Below, piece after piece: positions 1-64,000 of a stretch of DNA of 64,000 nt. Below the pieces are notes generated by a model. It searched no databases. It saw only the letters and a list, made by a program, of their open reading frames with translations, and had not been told where the DNA came from. A program made the translations under genes and the position numbers. Source of the stretch: a virus; UHGV virus genome UHGV-1375844; one strand, 5' to 3'. The stretch's first letter is position 1, and every line of letters starts with the position of its first letter.

Positions 1-217
1 AGACTCGACAATCATAGAATGACCCTTATCTCTGCTCACTTTGGTTCCGCCTTCCCCAACCCCTAAACGGTGCCGGTTCTACGCTGGTAGTGAGCTTTTT
101 TAAACCTGACGCCAGTGACACAATCCCCCACCCATCAGGCCGAGCGTCCGGAGGTTCCGGAAGCATGGGGATATTAACACTGGAATCCACGGTTTAAAAT
201 AGGTAAGCAATTACCTA

Positions 218-472
218 TCAAGCGGTTTGATTATTTTGTCGCCCATGTAGTTGGGTGTTCAGAGCGAAAACCTCGTTAACAAGCTCCCCAAGCAACTGCT
301 CGATCAAATCTTTGTGCTCACCGGCGTGCAGACATTTCATTGCCCATTCATACAAGCTGAACGCCTGTTCGCGAGTTTTCATCATCTCACGAGCTTTGGC
401 CAGAAAATCGCTCTCAACAAGCGCTACGACGTTCGTCGGGTATACCATGATATTTTCCTTACTGTGTTTCAT
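218..472 (-). CDS. hypothetical protein (84 aa)
   Basis: ORF in six-frame track; same orientation as neighbours; no recognisable motif. Confidence 0.35.
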   Translation of the reverse strand: MKHSKENIMVYPTNVVALVESDFLAKAREMMKTREQAFSLYEWAMKCLHAGEHKDLIEQLLGELVNEVFALNTQLHGRQNNQTA

Positions 473-562
473 AAAAACGATTCTAAAGCGTCTGGAGCGG
501 GGTTCCAGAGAGTTAAAGCGGTTAGAATCGGTCTGGGATATCTACAGAACTACGTTTTGGTA

Positions 563-612
563 GACCTGCTTCTGTATATAAATAACTAATTACTTATTAA
601 TATATACGGAAG
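563..612. repeat. ~50 bp palindromic element (copy A): stems ACCTGCTTCTGTATATA / TATATACGGAAGCAGGT around an AT-rich loop containing the TAAGTA-like motif
   Basis: Inverted repeat read directly; near-identical inverted copy at 49651-49704. Confidence 0.6.
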
Positions 613-643
613 CAGGTTATCTAACGGACTCCCAGAACAAGAC

Positions 644-1237
644 TTAAGCAGCCTTTTTAGGTGGTCTTTTCTTCCTGATTACAGTGGAAGGATCATAGCC
701 ACCCAGCTTTTTCATTACCGTCAGCGGTACCTTGCTGATCGTGTGTCCAGCATCCTGACAATGCCCACGAAAGATGACCAGCATACTGCCACCTGGATTG
801 ATATTGACCTCCACCAGCCCAAGCTCAACGTCCGGCTCGATGAACGCTACGCGACCCCCGGAGAGTATGACTGTTTCGTTGGCGCATTCCGCGGCACGCT
901 CATACCATTTCGTATCCAGGGATTGTGGTATCAACATGACTGTCGTTACGCCCCGCGCCTGCTCTCGAATGGCCGCATCGATCCACGGCGTTATTTTTGA
1001 GTAGGGCGGGTTTAGGAACGCCACTGTGCCCGGGTTGCCCCATTCGCACGTTAAAGCATCACGCTCCACGCCGATAAAGTTCGGTAGCAGTGCATTTTCT
1101 TTATTGCAGGCGACGTCGACATCGAACTTAACGCCTATGTATCTTTGAATGGCGACAAATAACCACTGGGGTGTGCGCCAAAGGTCACGAAGAGAGGTAT
1201 CACGCTCTCGCTTTTTGATTTTTTCCGCTGCGACCAT
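644..1237 (-). CDS. DNA N6-adenine methyltransferase (Dam-like, phage type)
   Basis: FLNPPYS motif (N6-adenine MTase motif IV); size and layout typical of phage Dam-family enzymes. Confidence 0.8.
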   Translation of the reverse strand: MVAAEKIKKRERDTSLRDLWRTPQWLFVAIQRYIGVKFDVDVACNKENALLPNFIGVERDALTCEWGNPGTVAFLNPPYSKITPWIDAAIREQARGVTTVMLIPQSLDTKWYERAAECANETVILSGGRVAFIEPDVELGLVEVNINPGGSMLVIFRGHCQDAGHTISKVPLTVMKKLGGYDPSTVIRKKRPPKKAA

Positions 1238-61880: not shown

Positions 61881-61905
61881 ATTCGCTCCTTGAAAGGACG
61901 GGCAT

Positions 61906-61926
61906 CCTTGCCCGTCATTAAGTAAG
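61906..61926. terminator. hairpin GGACGGGCA-tcct-TGCCCGTC upstream of the long fibre gene
   Basis: 9 bp stem read directly; followed by a palindromic motif copy at ~61928-61947. Confidence 0.45.
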
Positions 61927-61967
61927 TACCTACTTATTTTTACCGATATAAAGAAATATTTCTACTA

Positions 61968-63974
61968 TCAAAGCAAGCCAATGCGCACCCGGAGAACATT
62001 GTTGTCATCATAAACATCAATGCGCTGACCATTAATGACCAAACGACCGTTGCCACCGCTGTTGCCGTTAATCTCCAGAACTCCGTTTTTGCCAAACCGC
62101 CACCCAGAGCGCCCGGAAACAAAATTCGTAGACTGGAGATCGCCCACTTTGGCATTGGTAATCGTGCCATCCTTGATATAGGCGCCATTCATGTAAGCAA
62201 TGCTGTTTTCAACCACGAACGGCGTTGTAACCTTCCCGTTCACTGAGTTCACCAATCCAAAACGGTCGGCTTGAACAAGGAATTGAGACAGGCCAGTGCT
62301 GTCGATCCCCAGCGCGATGCCGGCAACATACTTCTGCCCGCCGCTGGTGGATGTCTCCATCTTAAGTGTCCAAGCTGTAGAGACCTTTTTATTGGTATCT
62401 GCAATAGCTGTCGCCTGTTGCCTAATCGTTGCAGAGTTACCGTCAACAGAGGCTTTTAGCGTGTCGATACGTGACCCCAACGCCCCATCAGCATTAGCCC
62501 TGGCGTTCGCCTCGGACGTAATCGCTGCATTAATGTCCTTGCCAGTCTGGGCTTTCAGGCTTGTGATCTGCCCGGCCAGCGCCGAATCGGCATCAGTACG
62601 AGCTTTAGTCTCAGTAGCAACCGCTGCTTTGATGTCCTGTGCAGTCTGGGCCTTTAACGTGCTGATCTGGGTTGCCAGTGCGCTATCCGCGTCAGTACGC
62701 GCTTTCGTTTCACTGGCAACTGCCGCCTTAATATCCTCCCCCGTCTGAGCCTTGAGGCTGGTAATTTGTTTGGATAATGCCTCATCCCCTGAAGCTCGTG
62801 CGGTCTGCTCTTCCGTAAGAGCCGCACTAATGTCACCTTCTACCTTCGCCTGCAGTGACGTAATCTGCCTGGAAAGCGATTCATCCGCAGTCGCTCGGGC
62901 CTCCTGCTCAGAAACAATGGCCGCAGAAATATCATCATTGATCTGGGCTTCCAGCTTGGTGATTTGTGTTGCGATCGCCTTATCAGCTTCAACACGAGCT
63001 GTCGTCTCTTCGGTAATAGATGCCCGGATGTCCTCACCAATCTCTGCGCGGATCTCTTCCACTTTGGAGGCCATCGCAGACATATCGTCAGCAAAGGTCT
63101 TTTGAGTGGTGGCGATCTTCGCATTATTGACCATCTGCTTATGCTGGTCTTCGTCCTGTCGCAGTGCGAGGTCGATGTTGGTTTTGGCCAATGCCTCGAT
63201 ATTAGTCGTCACTTCCGCGCTGGCACGTTCGACTTCGGCAACGGTCTTTTTCATCTCTTCGACAGCGGCTACGCTATCATCGACAGAAGACTTAATCGCC
63301 TCGATCTGTTTGGCGTTCGCCTTGTCACCCTCTACTCTGGCCTCTCGCTCTTCAGCAATTAAGGCAGATGAATTGTCCAGGGCCGCTTGAGCCGCTTCAA
63401 CCGCGCCGGCCACTGCTTTGCCCTGTTCAGACACAGTCTCCTGCAATTCAACCAGGGCGGCGTTTGAGTCTTCGACTTGACTCAGCGCCTCGTTAACCTT
63501 ATCGAGCGTGCCAGACACCTCTGTTTTCAGGTCATTCTGGGCCTGCTCAAGTCTGTCGCTGGTCTCTGACAGCTTCCCGTCCAGATCGGAAACAGACTGG
63601 TCGAGTTCTTTGAGGCTTTCCTCCATCTGCTTATTGATAGCGTCAACGGCTTCTTGAGAGGCTTTGGTGTCAATTTCCTCCAACAGTTCCTGCCCCAGCT
63701 CAGAAGACGTGATCTTACCTGTCAGGAAAGAAAGCACGTCTTTCGTCATAGCCTCTGTACCCAGATTAGAGTTAGGCGGACTTAACATGCCTCGTTTATT
63801 GGCTGCACGTACCCAATAGAACCAGGTCTCGCTATCCCCTAAACCCGCATGGGTAAAGGTCGTGCTGGCCGACTCAGCGATCAGCTTGGCTGTGTCCAGA
63901 TTGTTAGTCTGGGATGCATATACGTTGATATGGTCGAGGTCGATTGAGTCTGGGTTTACCCAATTCAAAATCAC
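61968..63974 (-). CDS. tail fibre / host-specificity protein with long coiled-coil repeat region (start uncertain, may lie beyond the window)
   Basis: 668 aa ORF; repeated EARATADESLSRQITSLQAK-type units; globular C-terminus. Confidence 0.55.
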   Translation of the reverse strand: MILNWVNPDSIDLDHINVYASQTNNLDTAKLIAESASTTFTHAGLGDSETWFYWVRAANKRGMLSPPNSNLGTEAMTKDVLSFLTGKITSSELGQELLEEIDTKASQEAVDAINKQMEESLKELDQSVSDLDGKLSETSDRLEQAQNDLKTEVSGTLDKVNEALSQVEDSNAALVELQETVSEQGKAVAGAVEAAQAALDNSSALIAEEREARVEGDKANAKQIEAIKSSVDDSVAAVEEMKKTVAEVERASAEVTTNIEALAKTNIDLALRQDEDQHKQMVNNAKIATTQKTFADDMSAMASKVEEIRAEIGEDIRASITEETTARVEADKAIATQITKLEAQINDDISAAIVSEQEARATADESLSRQITSLQAKVEGDISAALTEEQTARASGDEALSKQITSLKAQTGEDIKAAVASETKARTDADSALATQISTLKAQTAQDIKAAVATETKARTDADSALAGQITSLKAQTGKDINAAITSEANARANADGALGSRIDTLKASVDGNSATIRQQATAIADTNKKVSTAWTLKMETSTSGGQKYVAGIALGIDSTGLSQFLVQADRFGLVNSVNGKVTTPFVVENSIAYMNGAYIKDGTITNAKVGDLQSTNFVSGRSGWRFGKNGVLEINGNSGGNGRLVINGQRIDVYDDNNVLRVRIGLL

Positions 63975-64000
63975 ATTTCGGTAGTCGCCAACGGCCGTCA

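What the first reader, a model, noticed from the sequence alone, without database searches (positions are those of the whole stretch)
1..64000. Phage-plasmid architecture: P1-type RepA/iterons/ParA inside a phage genome with its own replisome
A P1-like repA with flanking iterons and a ParA partition pair sits among phage genes for nucleotide metabolism, a DnaE-type polymerase, recombination, lysis and tail fibres. That combination points to an extrachromosomal plasmid-prophage of the SSU5/pHCM2 type rather than an integrating or strictly lytic phage.
Basis: partly seen in the sequence, partly recalled or inferred. Interest (0 to 1): 0.5.

Follow-up and report, generated by a model that had tools for sequence, protein, structure and literature searches.

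The report
Known SSU5-type phage-plasmid segment
This window is about 60% of a well-known kind of Salmonella "phage-plasmid" (SSU5/pHCM2 type), a phage that persists as a plasmid using a P1-like RepA/iteron origin.

Summary

- **Identity.** The window is collinear and 99.2-99.7% identical to two closed circular 106,569-bp IncFIB plasmids of Salmonella Concord. It is 80-83% identical to phage SSU5, and 100% identical wherever sequence of a 107,251-bp metagenome contig could be fetched.
- **Replicon.** repA (18846-19901) is 90% identical to SSU5 RepA and 47% to P1 RepA. It is flanked by 26 iterons, all within 18301-20459. A DnaA box, a GATC cluster and five iterons in 21-bp phase copy the layout of P1 oriR. 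The iteron sequence itself is not P1's.
- **Correction on ParA.** ParA (51126-51791) lies 31 kb from repA. It is a small ParF-like type Ib ATPase, not P1-type. Its 119-aa partner is only inferred.
- **Other genes.** DnaE, DnaB, primase, ligase, NrdAB, ThyA, DHFR, RecA-like, SbcCD-like, CobS/CobT-like, endolysin/spanin and tail-fibre genes are all confirmed.
- **Recombinase.** A tyrosine recombinase (35187-36293) is present, with no att-like repeats and no host flanks.
- **Side finding.** The tRNA-Thr gene (41605-41737) has its anticodon arm replaced by a ~73-nt module. That module is near-invariant across at least five tRNA frames in phage tRNA arrays and is absent from Rfam.

The parts
644..1237 (-). 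Dam-like N6-adenine DNA methyltransferase
   Evidence: PF05869 Dam on the identical contig. RefSeq name in the 99% relative.
2357..3664 (+). 1,308-bp insertion carrying a free-standing HNH endonuclease ORF (2559-3647). Absent from pAR-0407-3 and SSU5.
   Evidence: Pfam HNH_2 E 1e-11. Indel mapped. GC 39% against a window mean of 49.5%.
3676..12089 (-). Nucleotide-metabolism and proofreading block: 3'-5' exonuclease, kinase-like AAA_28 protein, DHFR, thymidylate synthase, MazG-like pyrophosphohydrolase, NrdB, NrdA
   Evidence: Pfam hits on the identical contig, RefSeq and SSU5 annotation.
13486..16813 (-). SbcC-like ATPase (13486-15402) and SbcD-like metallophosphoesterase (15632-16813)
   Evidence: PF02463/PF13476 and PF00149. 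Annotation.
18185..18406 (+). Origin-like module A: DnaA box TTATTCACA (18189), six GATC sites (18203-18260), five iterons in 21-bp phase (18301-18406)
   Evidence: Layout and part of the sequence match annotated P1 oriR.
18575..18808 (+). Module B: four further GATC sites and six iterons in 21-bp phase, ending 38 bp before the repA start. Probable autoregulated promoter region.
   Evidence: The promoter role is inferred from P1, where PrepA lies inside the incC iterons.
18846..19901 (+). repA, a Rep_3 (WH1/WH2) iteron-binding initiator of the RepFIB/P1 type
   Evidence: PLSDB types the 99% relative as IncFIB.
19904..20459 (.). incA-like control array. Seven direct iterons (19904-20229), a palindromic half-site (20109-20128) and six inverted iterons at ~40-bp spacing (20232-20459). 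The repA terminator hairpin 19921-19953 contains one iteron.
   Evidence: SSU5 has the same layout.
22412..25828 (-). Recombination block: RecA-like recombinase (22412-23482), 5'-3' exonuclease (23751-24695), SSB-like protein (24755-25828)
   Evidence: PF00154. Annotation.
26870..30388 (-). DnaE-type DNA polymerase III alpha subunit
   Evidence: PHP, DNA_pol3_alpha, finger and HHH_6 domains.
30569..34279 (-). CobS-like AAA_5 ATPase (30569-31804) and CobT-like VWA protein (31901-34279)
34815..36293 (.). XRE-type regulator (34815-35195, +) and tyrosine recombinase (35187-36293, -). They lie inside a 7.4-kb module (34280-41740) that SSU5 lacks.
   Evidence: Distribution. No att-like repeats.
41276..41814 (-). 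tRNA cluster: tRNA-Asn(GTT) 41740-41814, tRNA-Thr-derived element with replaced anticodon arm 41605-41737, tRNA-Ser(TGA) 41276-41362
43360..48745 (-). Replisome block: DNA ligase (43360-44682), primase (46139-47254), DnaB-like helicase (47405-48745)
   Evidence: Annotation.
50767..51791 (-). Partition candidate: ParF-like type Ib ParA (51126-51791) and a translationally coupled 119-aa ORF (50767-51126), possibly an RHH centromere-binding protein
   Evidence: SSU5_033 is annotated as a ParA-like partition protein.
53495..54440 (-). Lysis genes: Rz-like spanin (C-terminal part of ORF 53495-53944) and endolysin (53748-54440)
   Evidence: PHROG 1026 and PHROG 873.
54866..64000 (-). Tail-fibre region. 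Tail-fibre proteins at 54866-55756, 57124-57681 and 57681-61880. J-like central fibre from 61968 to beyond the window end. Cor-like exclusion lipoprotein at 55976-56221.
   Evidence: Annotation.

Best explanation
The window is about 60% of an SSU5_pHCM2-type phage-plasmid: a temperate siphovirus of Salmonella and other Enterobacteriaceae that persists as a low-copy circular plasmid instead of integrating.

**Plasmid replication (inferred by homology to P1 and RepFIB).** RepA binds 19-20-bp iterons. The module at 18185-18406 (DnaA box, then a Dam-methylatable GATC cluster, then five phased iterons) is the likely site of opening. The six iterons just upstream of repA probably autorepress its promoter. 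The 13-14 iterons downstream probably titrate or handcuff RepA to limit copy number. The element's own Dam-like methylase (644-1237) would keep the origin GATCs methylated.

**Segregation (inferred).** A ParF-like type Ib ATPase works with a small downstream DNA-binding partner. This pair is located far from the origin.

**Lytic growth (inferred).** The element's own replisome is used: DnaE, DnaB, primase, ligase and exonucleases. It is supported by dNTP-supply genes and by recombination genes. Endolysin/spanin lysis follows, and mosaic tail fibres set host range.

**Recombinase.** The tyrosine recombinase most likely resolves plasmid multimers, as Cre does for P1. This is the weakest inference.
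For: **Shown here**
- 99.2-99.7% identity and collinearity with closed circular IncFIB plasmids that carry a complete phage structural module.
- 80-83% identity and synteny with the virion-forming phage SSU5.
- 100% identity to a 107,251-bp stand-alone contig.
- RepA family and its P1 relationship.
- Iteron statistics and layout.
- DnaA box and the densest GATC cluster of the window.
- Point-for-point match to annotated P1 oriR/incC/incA.
- The same iteron layout in SSU5.
- ParA motif and its closest solved relative, ParF of TP228, E 4e-13.
- Replisome, CobS/CobT-like, lysis and tail genes.
- Close RepA relatives only on plasmid-sized contigs.

**From the literature**
- SSU5_pHCM2 is a curated phage-plasmid type with members shown to be packaged in virions (PMC12977533).
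- SSU5-group replicons are typed as IncFIB (10.1101/2025.09.12.675607).
Against: - The window holds neither end of the replicon, so circularity and the absence of an attachment site are not shown for this molecule itself.
- A plausibly active tyrosine recombinase is present, although phage-plasmids are said typically to lack integrases (PMC12977533).
- No centromere-like repeats were found near parA.
- The partner protein has no family hit, and its model has only modest confidence (pLDDT 66).
- All mechanistic steps (origin firing, handcuffing, partition, inducibility) are inferred by homology and were not tested.
Confidence: 0.92

Rival explanations
1. A domesticated or defective derivative. 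It has the SSU5-type sequence but persists only as a cryptic IncFIB plasmid and can no longer form infectious virions.
For: - The window itself contains only the tail-fibre and lysis parts of the virion module.
- It differs from its nearest relative by an HNH-gene insertion and loss of an SPFH cassette.
- Nothing here tests inducibility.
Against: - All long ORFs are intact and collinear with SSU5, a real phage.
- The 99% relative has capsid, portal, terminase, tape-measure and tail genes annotated as intact.
- SSU5_pHCM2 members were found packaged in virions (PMC12977533).
Confidence: 0.1
2. An integrating temperate prophage, or an element that alternates between states. The P4-like tyrosine recombinase at 35187-36293 would insert it into a host tRNA gene.
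For: - Tyrosine recombinase with an intact Arg, RxxR and His/Tyr pattern.
- It lies about 5 kb from a tRNA cluster.
- The literature notes that rare chromosomal regions resemble phage-plasmids (PMC12977533).
Against: - The same recombinase module occurs in many closed circular plasmids.
- No att-like direct repeats in 34200-42000.
- The stand-alone contig is about replicon size.
- From my own recall of the E. coli tRNA-Asn sequence, not a tool result, the element's tRNA-Asn looks unrelated to the host's, so it offers no obvious attP.
- A RepA/iteron/ParA set argues for episomal maintenance.
Confidence: 0.03
3. A strictly lytic phage whose RepA/iteron and ParA genes serve lytic replication only.
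For: It has a large self-sufficient replisome and dNTP-synthesis set of the kind seen in virulent phages.
Against: - Near-identical DNA is deposited as stable plasmids of cultured Salmonella isolates.
- Iteron arrays on both sides of repA are a copy-number control device.
- There are hundreds of related plasmid records.
Confidence: 0.01

Closest known systems
Salmonella Concord plasmid pAR-0407-3 (NZ_CP044180.1) and its twin NZ_CP030187.1
   Same: Collinear over the whole window at 99.2-99.7% identity. Same repA, iterons, parA, recombinase module, tRNA cluster and tail fibres.
   Different: The window has a 1,308-bp HNH-endonuclease insertion (2357-3664). It lacks the 1.1-kb SPFH plus small-membrane-protein cassette, with the junction at 22377-22401.
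Salmonella phage SSU5 (NC_018843), type member of the SSU5_pHCM2 phage-plasmid group
   Same: Synteny throughout. 80-83% nucleotide identity. RepA 89.8% identical with the same iteron motif and layout. The homologous ParA is annotated as a partition protein.
   Different: SSU5 lacks the 7.4-kb segment between cobT and tRNA-Asn (recombinase, XRE, PhoH, glutaredoxin, tRNA-Thr-like, tRNA-Ser). Tail-fibre segments diverge. SSU5 has the SPFH-type cassette and a few extra small genes.
Phage-plasmid P1 plasmid replicon (oriR/incC - repA - incA)
   Same: RepA is 46.7% identical. Same order: DnaA box, GATC cluster, five iterons in 21-bp phase, repA, then an iteron array starting at the stop codon. The DnaA/GATC stretch is visibly similar in sequence.
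   Different: - The iteron sequence is unrelated: 0 hits either way.
- There is a second upstream GATC-plus-iteron module.
- The downstream array has both orientations.
- No parABS lies next to it.
- P1 is a myovirus with a separate lytic replicon.
ParF/ParG type Ib partition system of plasmid TP228
   Same: ParA is 221 aa with a deviant Walker A motif and no N-terminal DNA-binding domain. Its best solved relative is ParF (4dzz, E 4e-13). A small gene follows with overlapping stop and start codons. That protein has a basic disordered tail and an RHH-like sequence pattern.
   Different: The partner has no detectable homology to ParG. No centromere repeats were identified. Function is untested.
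RepFIB replicon of IncF plasmids (F, P307)
   Same: The 99% relative is typed IncFIB by MOB-suite, and repA is flanked by iterons on both sides. From background knowledge, RepFIB has this organisation and is related to P1 RepA.
   Different: No RepFIB reference sequence was compared directly here.

Membership tests
SSU5_pHCM2 phage-plasmid group | High gene-repertoire and nucleotide similarity, with synteny, to SSU5 | tested here: met
   83% identity over 91% of bases 1-25000 and 80% over 63% of bases 40000-64000, collinear.
SSU5_pHCM2 phage-plasmid group | Replicon size 94-126 kb (PMC12977533) | tested here: met
   The identical sequence lies on a 107,251-bp contig. The 99% relatives are 106,569 bp.
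SSU5_pHCM2 phage-plasmid group | Extrachromosomal circular state | tested here: inconclusive
   The relatives are closed circular plasmids and the source contig has no room for host flanks. The contig ends could not be fetched to test for a terminal overlap.
SSU5_pHCM2 phage-plasmid group | Plasmid replication and partition genes | tested here: met
   RepA plus iterons. ParA.
SSU5_pHCM2 phage-plasmid group | Phage lysis, tail, capsid and packaging genes | tested here: met
   Lysis and tail-fibre genes are in the window. Capsid, portal, terminase and tape-measure genes lie outside the window but are present in the 99% relative.
SSU5_pHCM2 phage-plasmid group | Production of infectious virions | not testable with these tools
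   Experimental. Shown for SSU5 and some group members in the literature (PMC12977533).
P1/RepFIB-type iteron replicon | RepA homologous to P1 RepA | tested here: met
   46.7% identity over 83% of the query, E 8e-80. Rep3_N and Rep3_C domains.
P1/RepFIB-type iteron replicon | Origin layout: DnaA box, GATC cluster, five phased iterons upstream, and a control iteron array directly downstream of repA | tested here: met
   compared with the P1 annotation.
P1/RepFIB-type iteron replicon | P1 iteron sequence, which sets incompatibility specificity | tested here: not met
   The P1 iteron gives 0 hits in the window at up to 3 mismatches. The window motif gives 0 hits in the P1 locus.
P1-type (type Ia) ParABS partition | ParA of ~400 aa with an N-terminal HTH domain and a ParB with ParB/HTH domains, adjacent to the replicon | tested here: not met
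   ParA is 221 aa and shares 25% identity over 84 aa with P1 ParA. The partner is 119 aa with no ParB domain. The pair is 31 kb from repA.
Type Ib (ParF/ParG-like) partition | Small deviant-Walker-A ATPase | tested here: met
   GGTKGGPGKST motif. ParF of TP228 is the best PDB match, E 4e-13. NCBIfam ParA_partition E 3e-34, but 118 bits against a cut-off of 180.
Type Ib (ParF/ParG-like) partition | Small RHH centromere-binding protein encoded directly downstream | tested here: inconclusive
   A coupled 119-aa ORF with a disordered basic tail and two short helices (pLDDT 66). Weak hit to the aCcr1 family, E 1.4e-4; that this family has an RHH fold is my background knowledge. No Pfam or PDB match.
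Type Ib (ParF/ParG-like) partition | Centromere repeats near the operon | tested here: not met
   No repeat family above chance in 49400-53500.
Integrative temperate prophage | Integrase with att sites and host DNA flanks | tested here: not met
   A recombinase is present, but there are no att-like repeats and no host flanks. The same module occurs in circular plasmids.

The most novel reading that the evidence does not exclude
The phage-plasmid itself is not novel. The most novel thing inside the coordinates is the tRNA-Thr-derived gene at 41605-41737.

Its acceptor, D and T arms and its CCA end are intact. The anticodon arm is replaced by a ~73-nt module with a near-invariant ~50-nt core: three small hairpins closed by a co-varying helix. 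The same core occurs in at least five different tRNA frames. It is found in P1-like and SSU5-like phage-plasmids and on metagenomic phage contigs up to jumbo size, usually inside tRNA arrays. It matches no Rfam family.

The reading not excluded is that this is an undescribed class of phage non-coding RNA. It would use a tRNA scaffold for processing and stability while presenting a conserved module, for example as a decoy or ligand for a host or phage factor, or as a small element that moves between tRNA genes.
Probability: 0.45. Interest if true: 0.6.

Novelty: already known. Interest (0 to 1): 0.2.

Why it matters
For the finding as stated, very little is new. SSU5/pHCM2-type phage-plasmids are catalogued in their hundreds, and this one is 99% identical to deposited plasmids.

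What this analysis adds for this subgroup:
- A base-level map of the origin: a P1-like DnaA/GATC/iteron module, a second iteron set at the promoter, and a two-orientation control array.
- The partition ATPase is ParF-like and lies remote from the origin.
- Many members carry a tyrosine recombinase, despite the general statement that phage-plasmids lack integrases.

The tRNA-framed RNA module would matter more if it is real. It would be a widespread phage RNA of unknown function, and it can be tested directly by Northern blot or RNA-seq and by pull-down.

Tried and rejected
- **Centromere repeats.** Searched around the parA operon (49400-53500). Nothing above chance.
- **att-like repeats.** Searched between the tRNA cluster and the recombinase module. 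Only short chance matches.
- **PDB sequence searches.** The recombinase and RepA gave no hits. The 119-aa partner gave only a meaningless IsdG match at E 0.36.
- **Pfam for the 119-aa ORF.** No family even at E up to 10.
- **Structure of the 119-aa ORF.** A single-sequence AlphaFold model gave only modest confidence, so no fold search was run on it.
- **PADLOC.** The accessory-module proteins gave no convincing defence system. There were only weak P-loop and HNH hits. The weak putAbiC hit of the 442-aa ORF is below Pfam's cut-off.
- **Kinase-like protein at 4726-5370.** It is a kinase-like AAA_28 protein.
- **YrlA (Y-RNA-like) match at 41688-41795.** Rejected: 24 bits against a gathering score of 69. 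It arises because a T arm is followed by the D arm of the next tandem tRNA.
- **Intron reading of the tRNA insert.** Rejected as a simple explanation, because removing the core does not restore a canonical anticodon arm.
- **Targets of the insert.** No in-window complementary target found.
- **Preprint.** The 2026 preprint on RepA-linked heteroresistance in a phage-plasmid could not be opened.
- **Contig ends.** The ends of the 107-kb source contig could not be reached, because only proteins encoded in the window may be looked up and flanks are limited to 10 kb.

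
Full report
**What the window is**

Megablast of the two halves of the window against plasmid records gives two closed circular Salmonella Concord plasmids of 106,569 bp. These are pAR-0407-3 (NZ_CP044180.1) and NZ_CP030187.1. They match at 99.2-99.7% identity and are collinear from record position 29,334 to 93,185. PLSDB types them as IncFIB and non-mobilizable.

Against phage records the best hit is Salmonella phage SSU5. Identity is 83% over 91% of bases 1-25000 and 80% over 63% of bases 40000-64000, again collinear.

Exact-protein look-ups place the sequence on an ENA metagenome contig of 107,251 bp and on two Logan assemblies. A local BLAST shows 100% identity to these over every stretch that could be fetched.

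Compared with pAR-0407-3, the window differs by only two indels.
- A 1,308-bp, 39%-GC insertion at 2357-3664 carries a free-standing HNH endonuclease gene.
- A 1.1-kb SPFH cassette is missing. In the relative, that cassette lies between two similar terminator-like hairpins.

**The replicon**

repA (18846-19901, 351 aa) has Rep3_N and Rep3_C domains. It is 89.8% identical to SSU5 RepA and 46.7% identical to P1/P7 RepA, E 8e-80.

The iterons are real.
- The core 11-mer occurs 37 times against 9.8 expected, and 0 of 100 shuffles reach 37. 25 of the hits lie in 18302-20458.
- A position-weight matrix built from the direct copies scores 25 sites at 16 bits or more, all in 18301-20459, and nothing else in the window reaches 16 bits. 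It independently recovers six inverted copies.

The layout, in order, is:
- a perfect DnaA box (TTATTCACA, 18189)
- six GATC sites in 55 bp, the densest cluster in the window
- five iterons in 21-bp phase (18301-18406)
- a second group of GATC sites and six phased iterons (18683-18808), ending just before repA
- one iteron inside repA (19697)
- after the stop codon, seven direct iterons, a palindromic half-site and six inverted iterons at ~40-bp spacing

A strong terminator hairpin right after repA contains one iteron.

This matches annotated P1 point for point. P1 has a DnaA box, five Dam sites, five incC iterons in 21-bp phase, repA, and then nine incA iterons starting at the stop codon. The DnaA/GATC stretch is even alignable by eye.

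The iteron sequence itself is different. It is shared with SSU5, which shows 24 motif hits in the same layout. It is absent from the P1 locus, and the P1 iteron is absent from the window.

So "P1-like RepA with flanking iterons" is correct at the level of family and architecture, but not of specificity. The proposed mechanism is inferred from P1 and RepFIB and was not tested here. It comprises RepA- and DnaA-dependent opening at module A, autorepression at module B, and copy-number limitation by the downstream array. The element also encodes a Dam-like methylase (644-1237), which fits a methylation-dependent origin.

**Partition**

No ParA lies next to repA. The only ParA-family gene is at 51126-51791, 31 kb away.
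- It is 221 aa and carries the deviant Walker A motif GGTKGGPGKST.
- It matches NCBIfam ParA_partition at E 3e-34, below the curated cut-off.
- Its closest solved relative is ParF of TP228, E 4e-13.
- It shares only 25% identity over 84 residues with the 398-aa P1 ParA.

It is therefore a type Ib ATPase, not P1-type. SSU5's annotators call the homologue a ParA-like partition protein.

The next gene (50767-51126, 119 aa) starts on the parA stop codon.
- It has a basic, probably disordered, N-terminal tail.
- It then has a sequence pattern compatible with a ribbon-helix-helix.
- A low-confidence model shows two short helices plus a long one.
- It has a weak hit to the aCcr1 family, which I know as RHH proteins.
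- It has no Pfam or PDB relative.

No centromere repeats were found. The "partition pair" is therefore plausible but only half demonstrated.

**Phage functions**

- DnaE with four diagnostic domains, and the CobS-like and CobT-like proteins
- DnaB-like helicase and primase
- ligase, 3'-5' and 5'-3' exonucleases, SSB-like protein, RecA-like recombinase and SbcCD-like nuclease
- NrdAB, thymidylate synthase, DHFR and a MazG-like enzyme
- an endolysin and Rz-like spanin, several tail-fibre genes and a Cor-like exclusion lipoprotein

Capsid, portal, terminase and tape-measure genes lie outside the window, but they are present in the 99% relative.

**Integrated or episomal?**

The window contains neither end of the element, so this cannot be read from it directly. 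Several lines of evidence favour an episome.
- The closest relatives are closed circles.
- The source contig is about the size of the whole replicon.
- RepA relatives at 89% identity or more in species-representative genomes sit on 58-109 kb contigs. More distant ones are on plasmid or megaplasmid contigs, and none is on a multi-megabase contig.

A tyrosine recombinase (35187-36293) with a plausible catalytic set is present. It lies in a 7.4-kb module that SSU5 lacks but that many circular SSU5-like plasmids carry. No att-like repeats flank the module. I infer multimer resolution as its role, by analogy with Cre of P1. This is unproven.

The literature describes the SSU5 supergroup, and the SSU5_pHCM2 group within it, as established phage-plasmids (PMC7969092, PMC12977533). 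It also records that typing tools label their replication genes IncFIB (10.1101/2025.09.12.675607).

**Verdict on the finding**

The element is already known. The title needs one correction: ParA is not P1-type and is not part of the RepA cassette.

**Side observation worth a separate look**

Rfam reports a 130-nt "tRNA" at 41608-41737, 2 nt after tRNA-Asn, which ARAGORN does not call.

Relatives have an ordinary tRNA-Thr(TGT) at this position. In the window, the acceptor stem, D arm, T arm, discriminator base and CCA are identical to that tRNA. The 17-nt anticodon arm, however, is replaced by about 73 nt.

The variant recurs widely.
- 11 phage-plasmid-sized plasmids, both IncFIB SSU5-like and IncY P1-like
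- phage Jgk1
- 11 IMG/VR loci and 9 metagenome loci, on contigs from 2 kb to 866 kb
- in most of the contigs scanned, inside a tRNA array

Thirteen distinct sequences include at least five different tRNA frames. A hand-drawn structure was counted on that alignment.
- 96.6% of cells are paired, against 28-42% when the partners are slid.
- 12 pairs change on both sides, a level that only 5 of 500 shuffles reach.
- Covariation occurs in 6 of 7 acceptor pairs, 3 of 5 T-stem pairs, and the helix that closes the insert. Pair 40-94 reads CG 7, GC 5, UA 1.
- The ~50-nt core never varies except in two hairpin loops. The core is AUCGUU, UCUAC-UUCG-GUAGA, CAGC-loop-GCUG, GUC-loop-GAC, AACGAUY, CGAU.

In Jgk1 the frame is 73% identical to the window's, while the insert is 89% identical (Fisher p = 0.02).

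Removing the core does not restore an anticodon arm, so it is not a simple intron. No in-window target, no Rfam family and no paper was found.

It may be a tRNA-scaffolded functional RNA, or a small element that spreads between tRNA genes. Either way, it is more interesting than the finding that led to it.

Noticed in passing
window 41605-41737 (- strand); also L092-L117: A tRNA-Thr-derived gene whose anticodon arm is replaced by a ~73-nt module: three small hairpins closed by a co-varying helix. The ~50-nt core is near-invariant across at least five tRNA frames. It occurs in P1-like and SSU5-like phage-plasmids, in phage Jgk1 and on metagenomic phage contigs up to jumbo size, usually inside tRNA arrays. 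It is not called by ARAGORN and is not in Rfam.
   Followed up: partly
window 2357-3664: A 1,308-bp low-GC (39%) insertion with a free-standing HNH endonuclease ORF (2559-3647). It is on the opposite strand to its neighbours, between the 3'-5' exonuclease gene and a hypothetical gene. It is absent from the 99% relative and from SSU5, so it is probably a homing-type endonuclease.
   Followed up: partly
window 22377-22401 (junction): The window lacks the 1.1-kb SPFH-domain plus small-membrane-protein cassette found in pAR-0407-3 and SSU5 (SSU5_061/062). In the relative, the cassette sits between two similar terminator-like hairpins, and the window keeps one hybrid copy.
   Followed up: partly
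window 34280-41740: A 7.4-kb accessory module inserted exactly between cobT and the 3' end of tRNA-Asn, relative to SSU5. It holds an XRE regulator, a P4-like tyrosine recombinase, a 207-aa ORF, glutaredoxin, a Gp49-family protein, PhoH, a 442-aa ORF on the opposite strand (weak putAbiC hit below cut-off), a 203-aa ORF and the extra tRNA genes. Relatives carry YafO toxin, TPR or HEPN genes in the same slot, which suggests a variable hotspot.
   Followed up: partly
window 18575-18808 versus 18185-18406: The upstream origin region is duplicated in kind: two successive GATC-cluster-plus-phased-iteron modules, where P1 has one. SSU5 shares this. Which module fires and which only regulates is unknown.
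   Followed up: no
window 19697-19716 and 19921-19953: One good iteron (16 bits) lies inside the repA coding sequence, and another is embedded in the loop of the repA terminator hairpin. RepA binding could therefore interfere with its own transcription or termination.
   Followed up: no
window 22412-23482: The RecA-like recombinase here is 356 aa and intein-free. Many Enterobacter, Citrobacter and Kluyvera relatives are annotated as carrying an intein-containing RecA at the same position.
   Followed up: no
L025, L026, L041, L068-L089 (RepA relatives): RepA relatives at 62-78% identity are widespread on 0.2-0.8 Mb contigs and on a 456-kb plasmid of Pantoea and Erwinia. The same initiator family therefore serves ordinary large plasmids as well as phage-plasmids.
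   Followed up: no
window 57681-64000: Tail-fibre segments match 45 unrelated phage records at 95-99% identity, while the rest of the window is about 80% identical to its nearest phage. This indicates recent mosaic exchange of host-range determinants.
   Followed up: no
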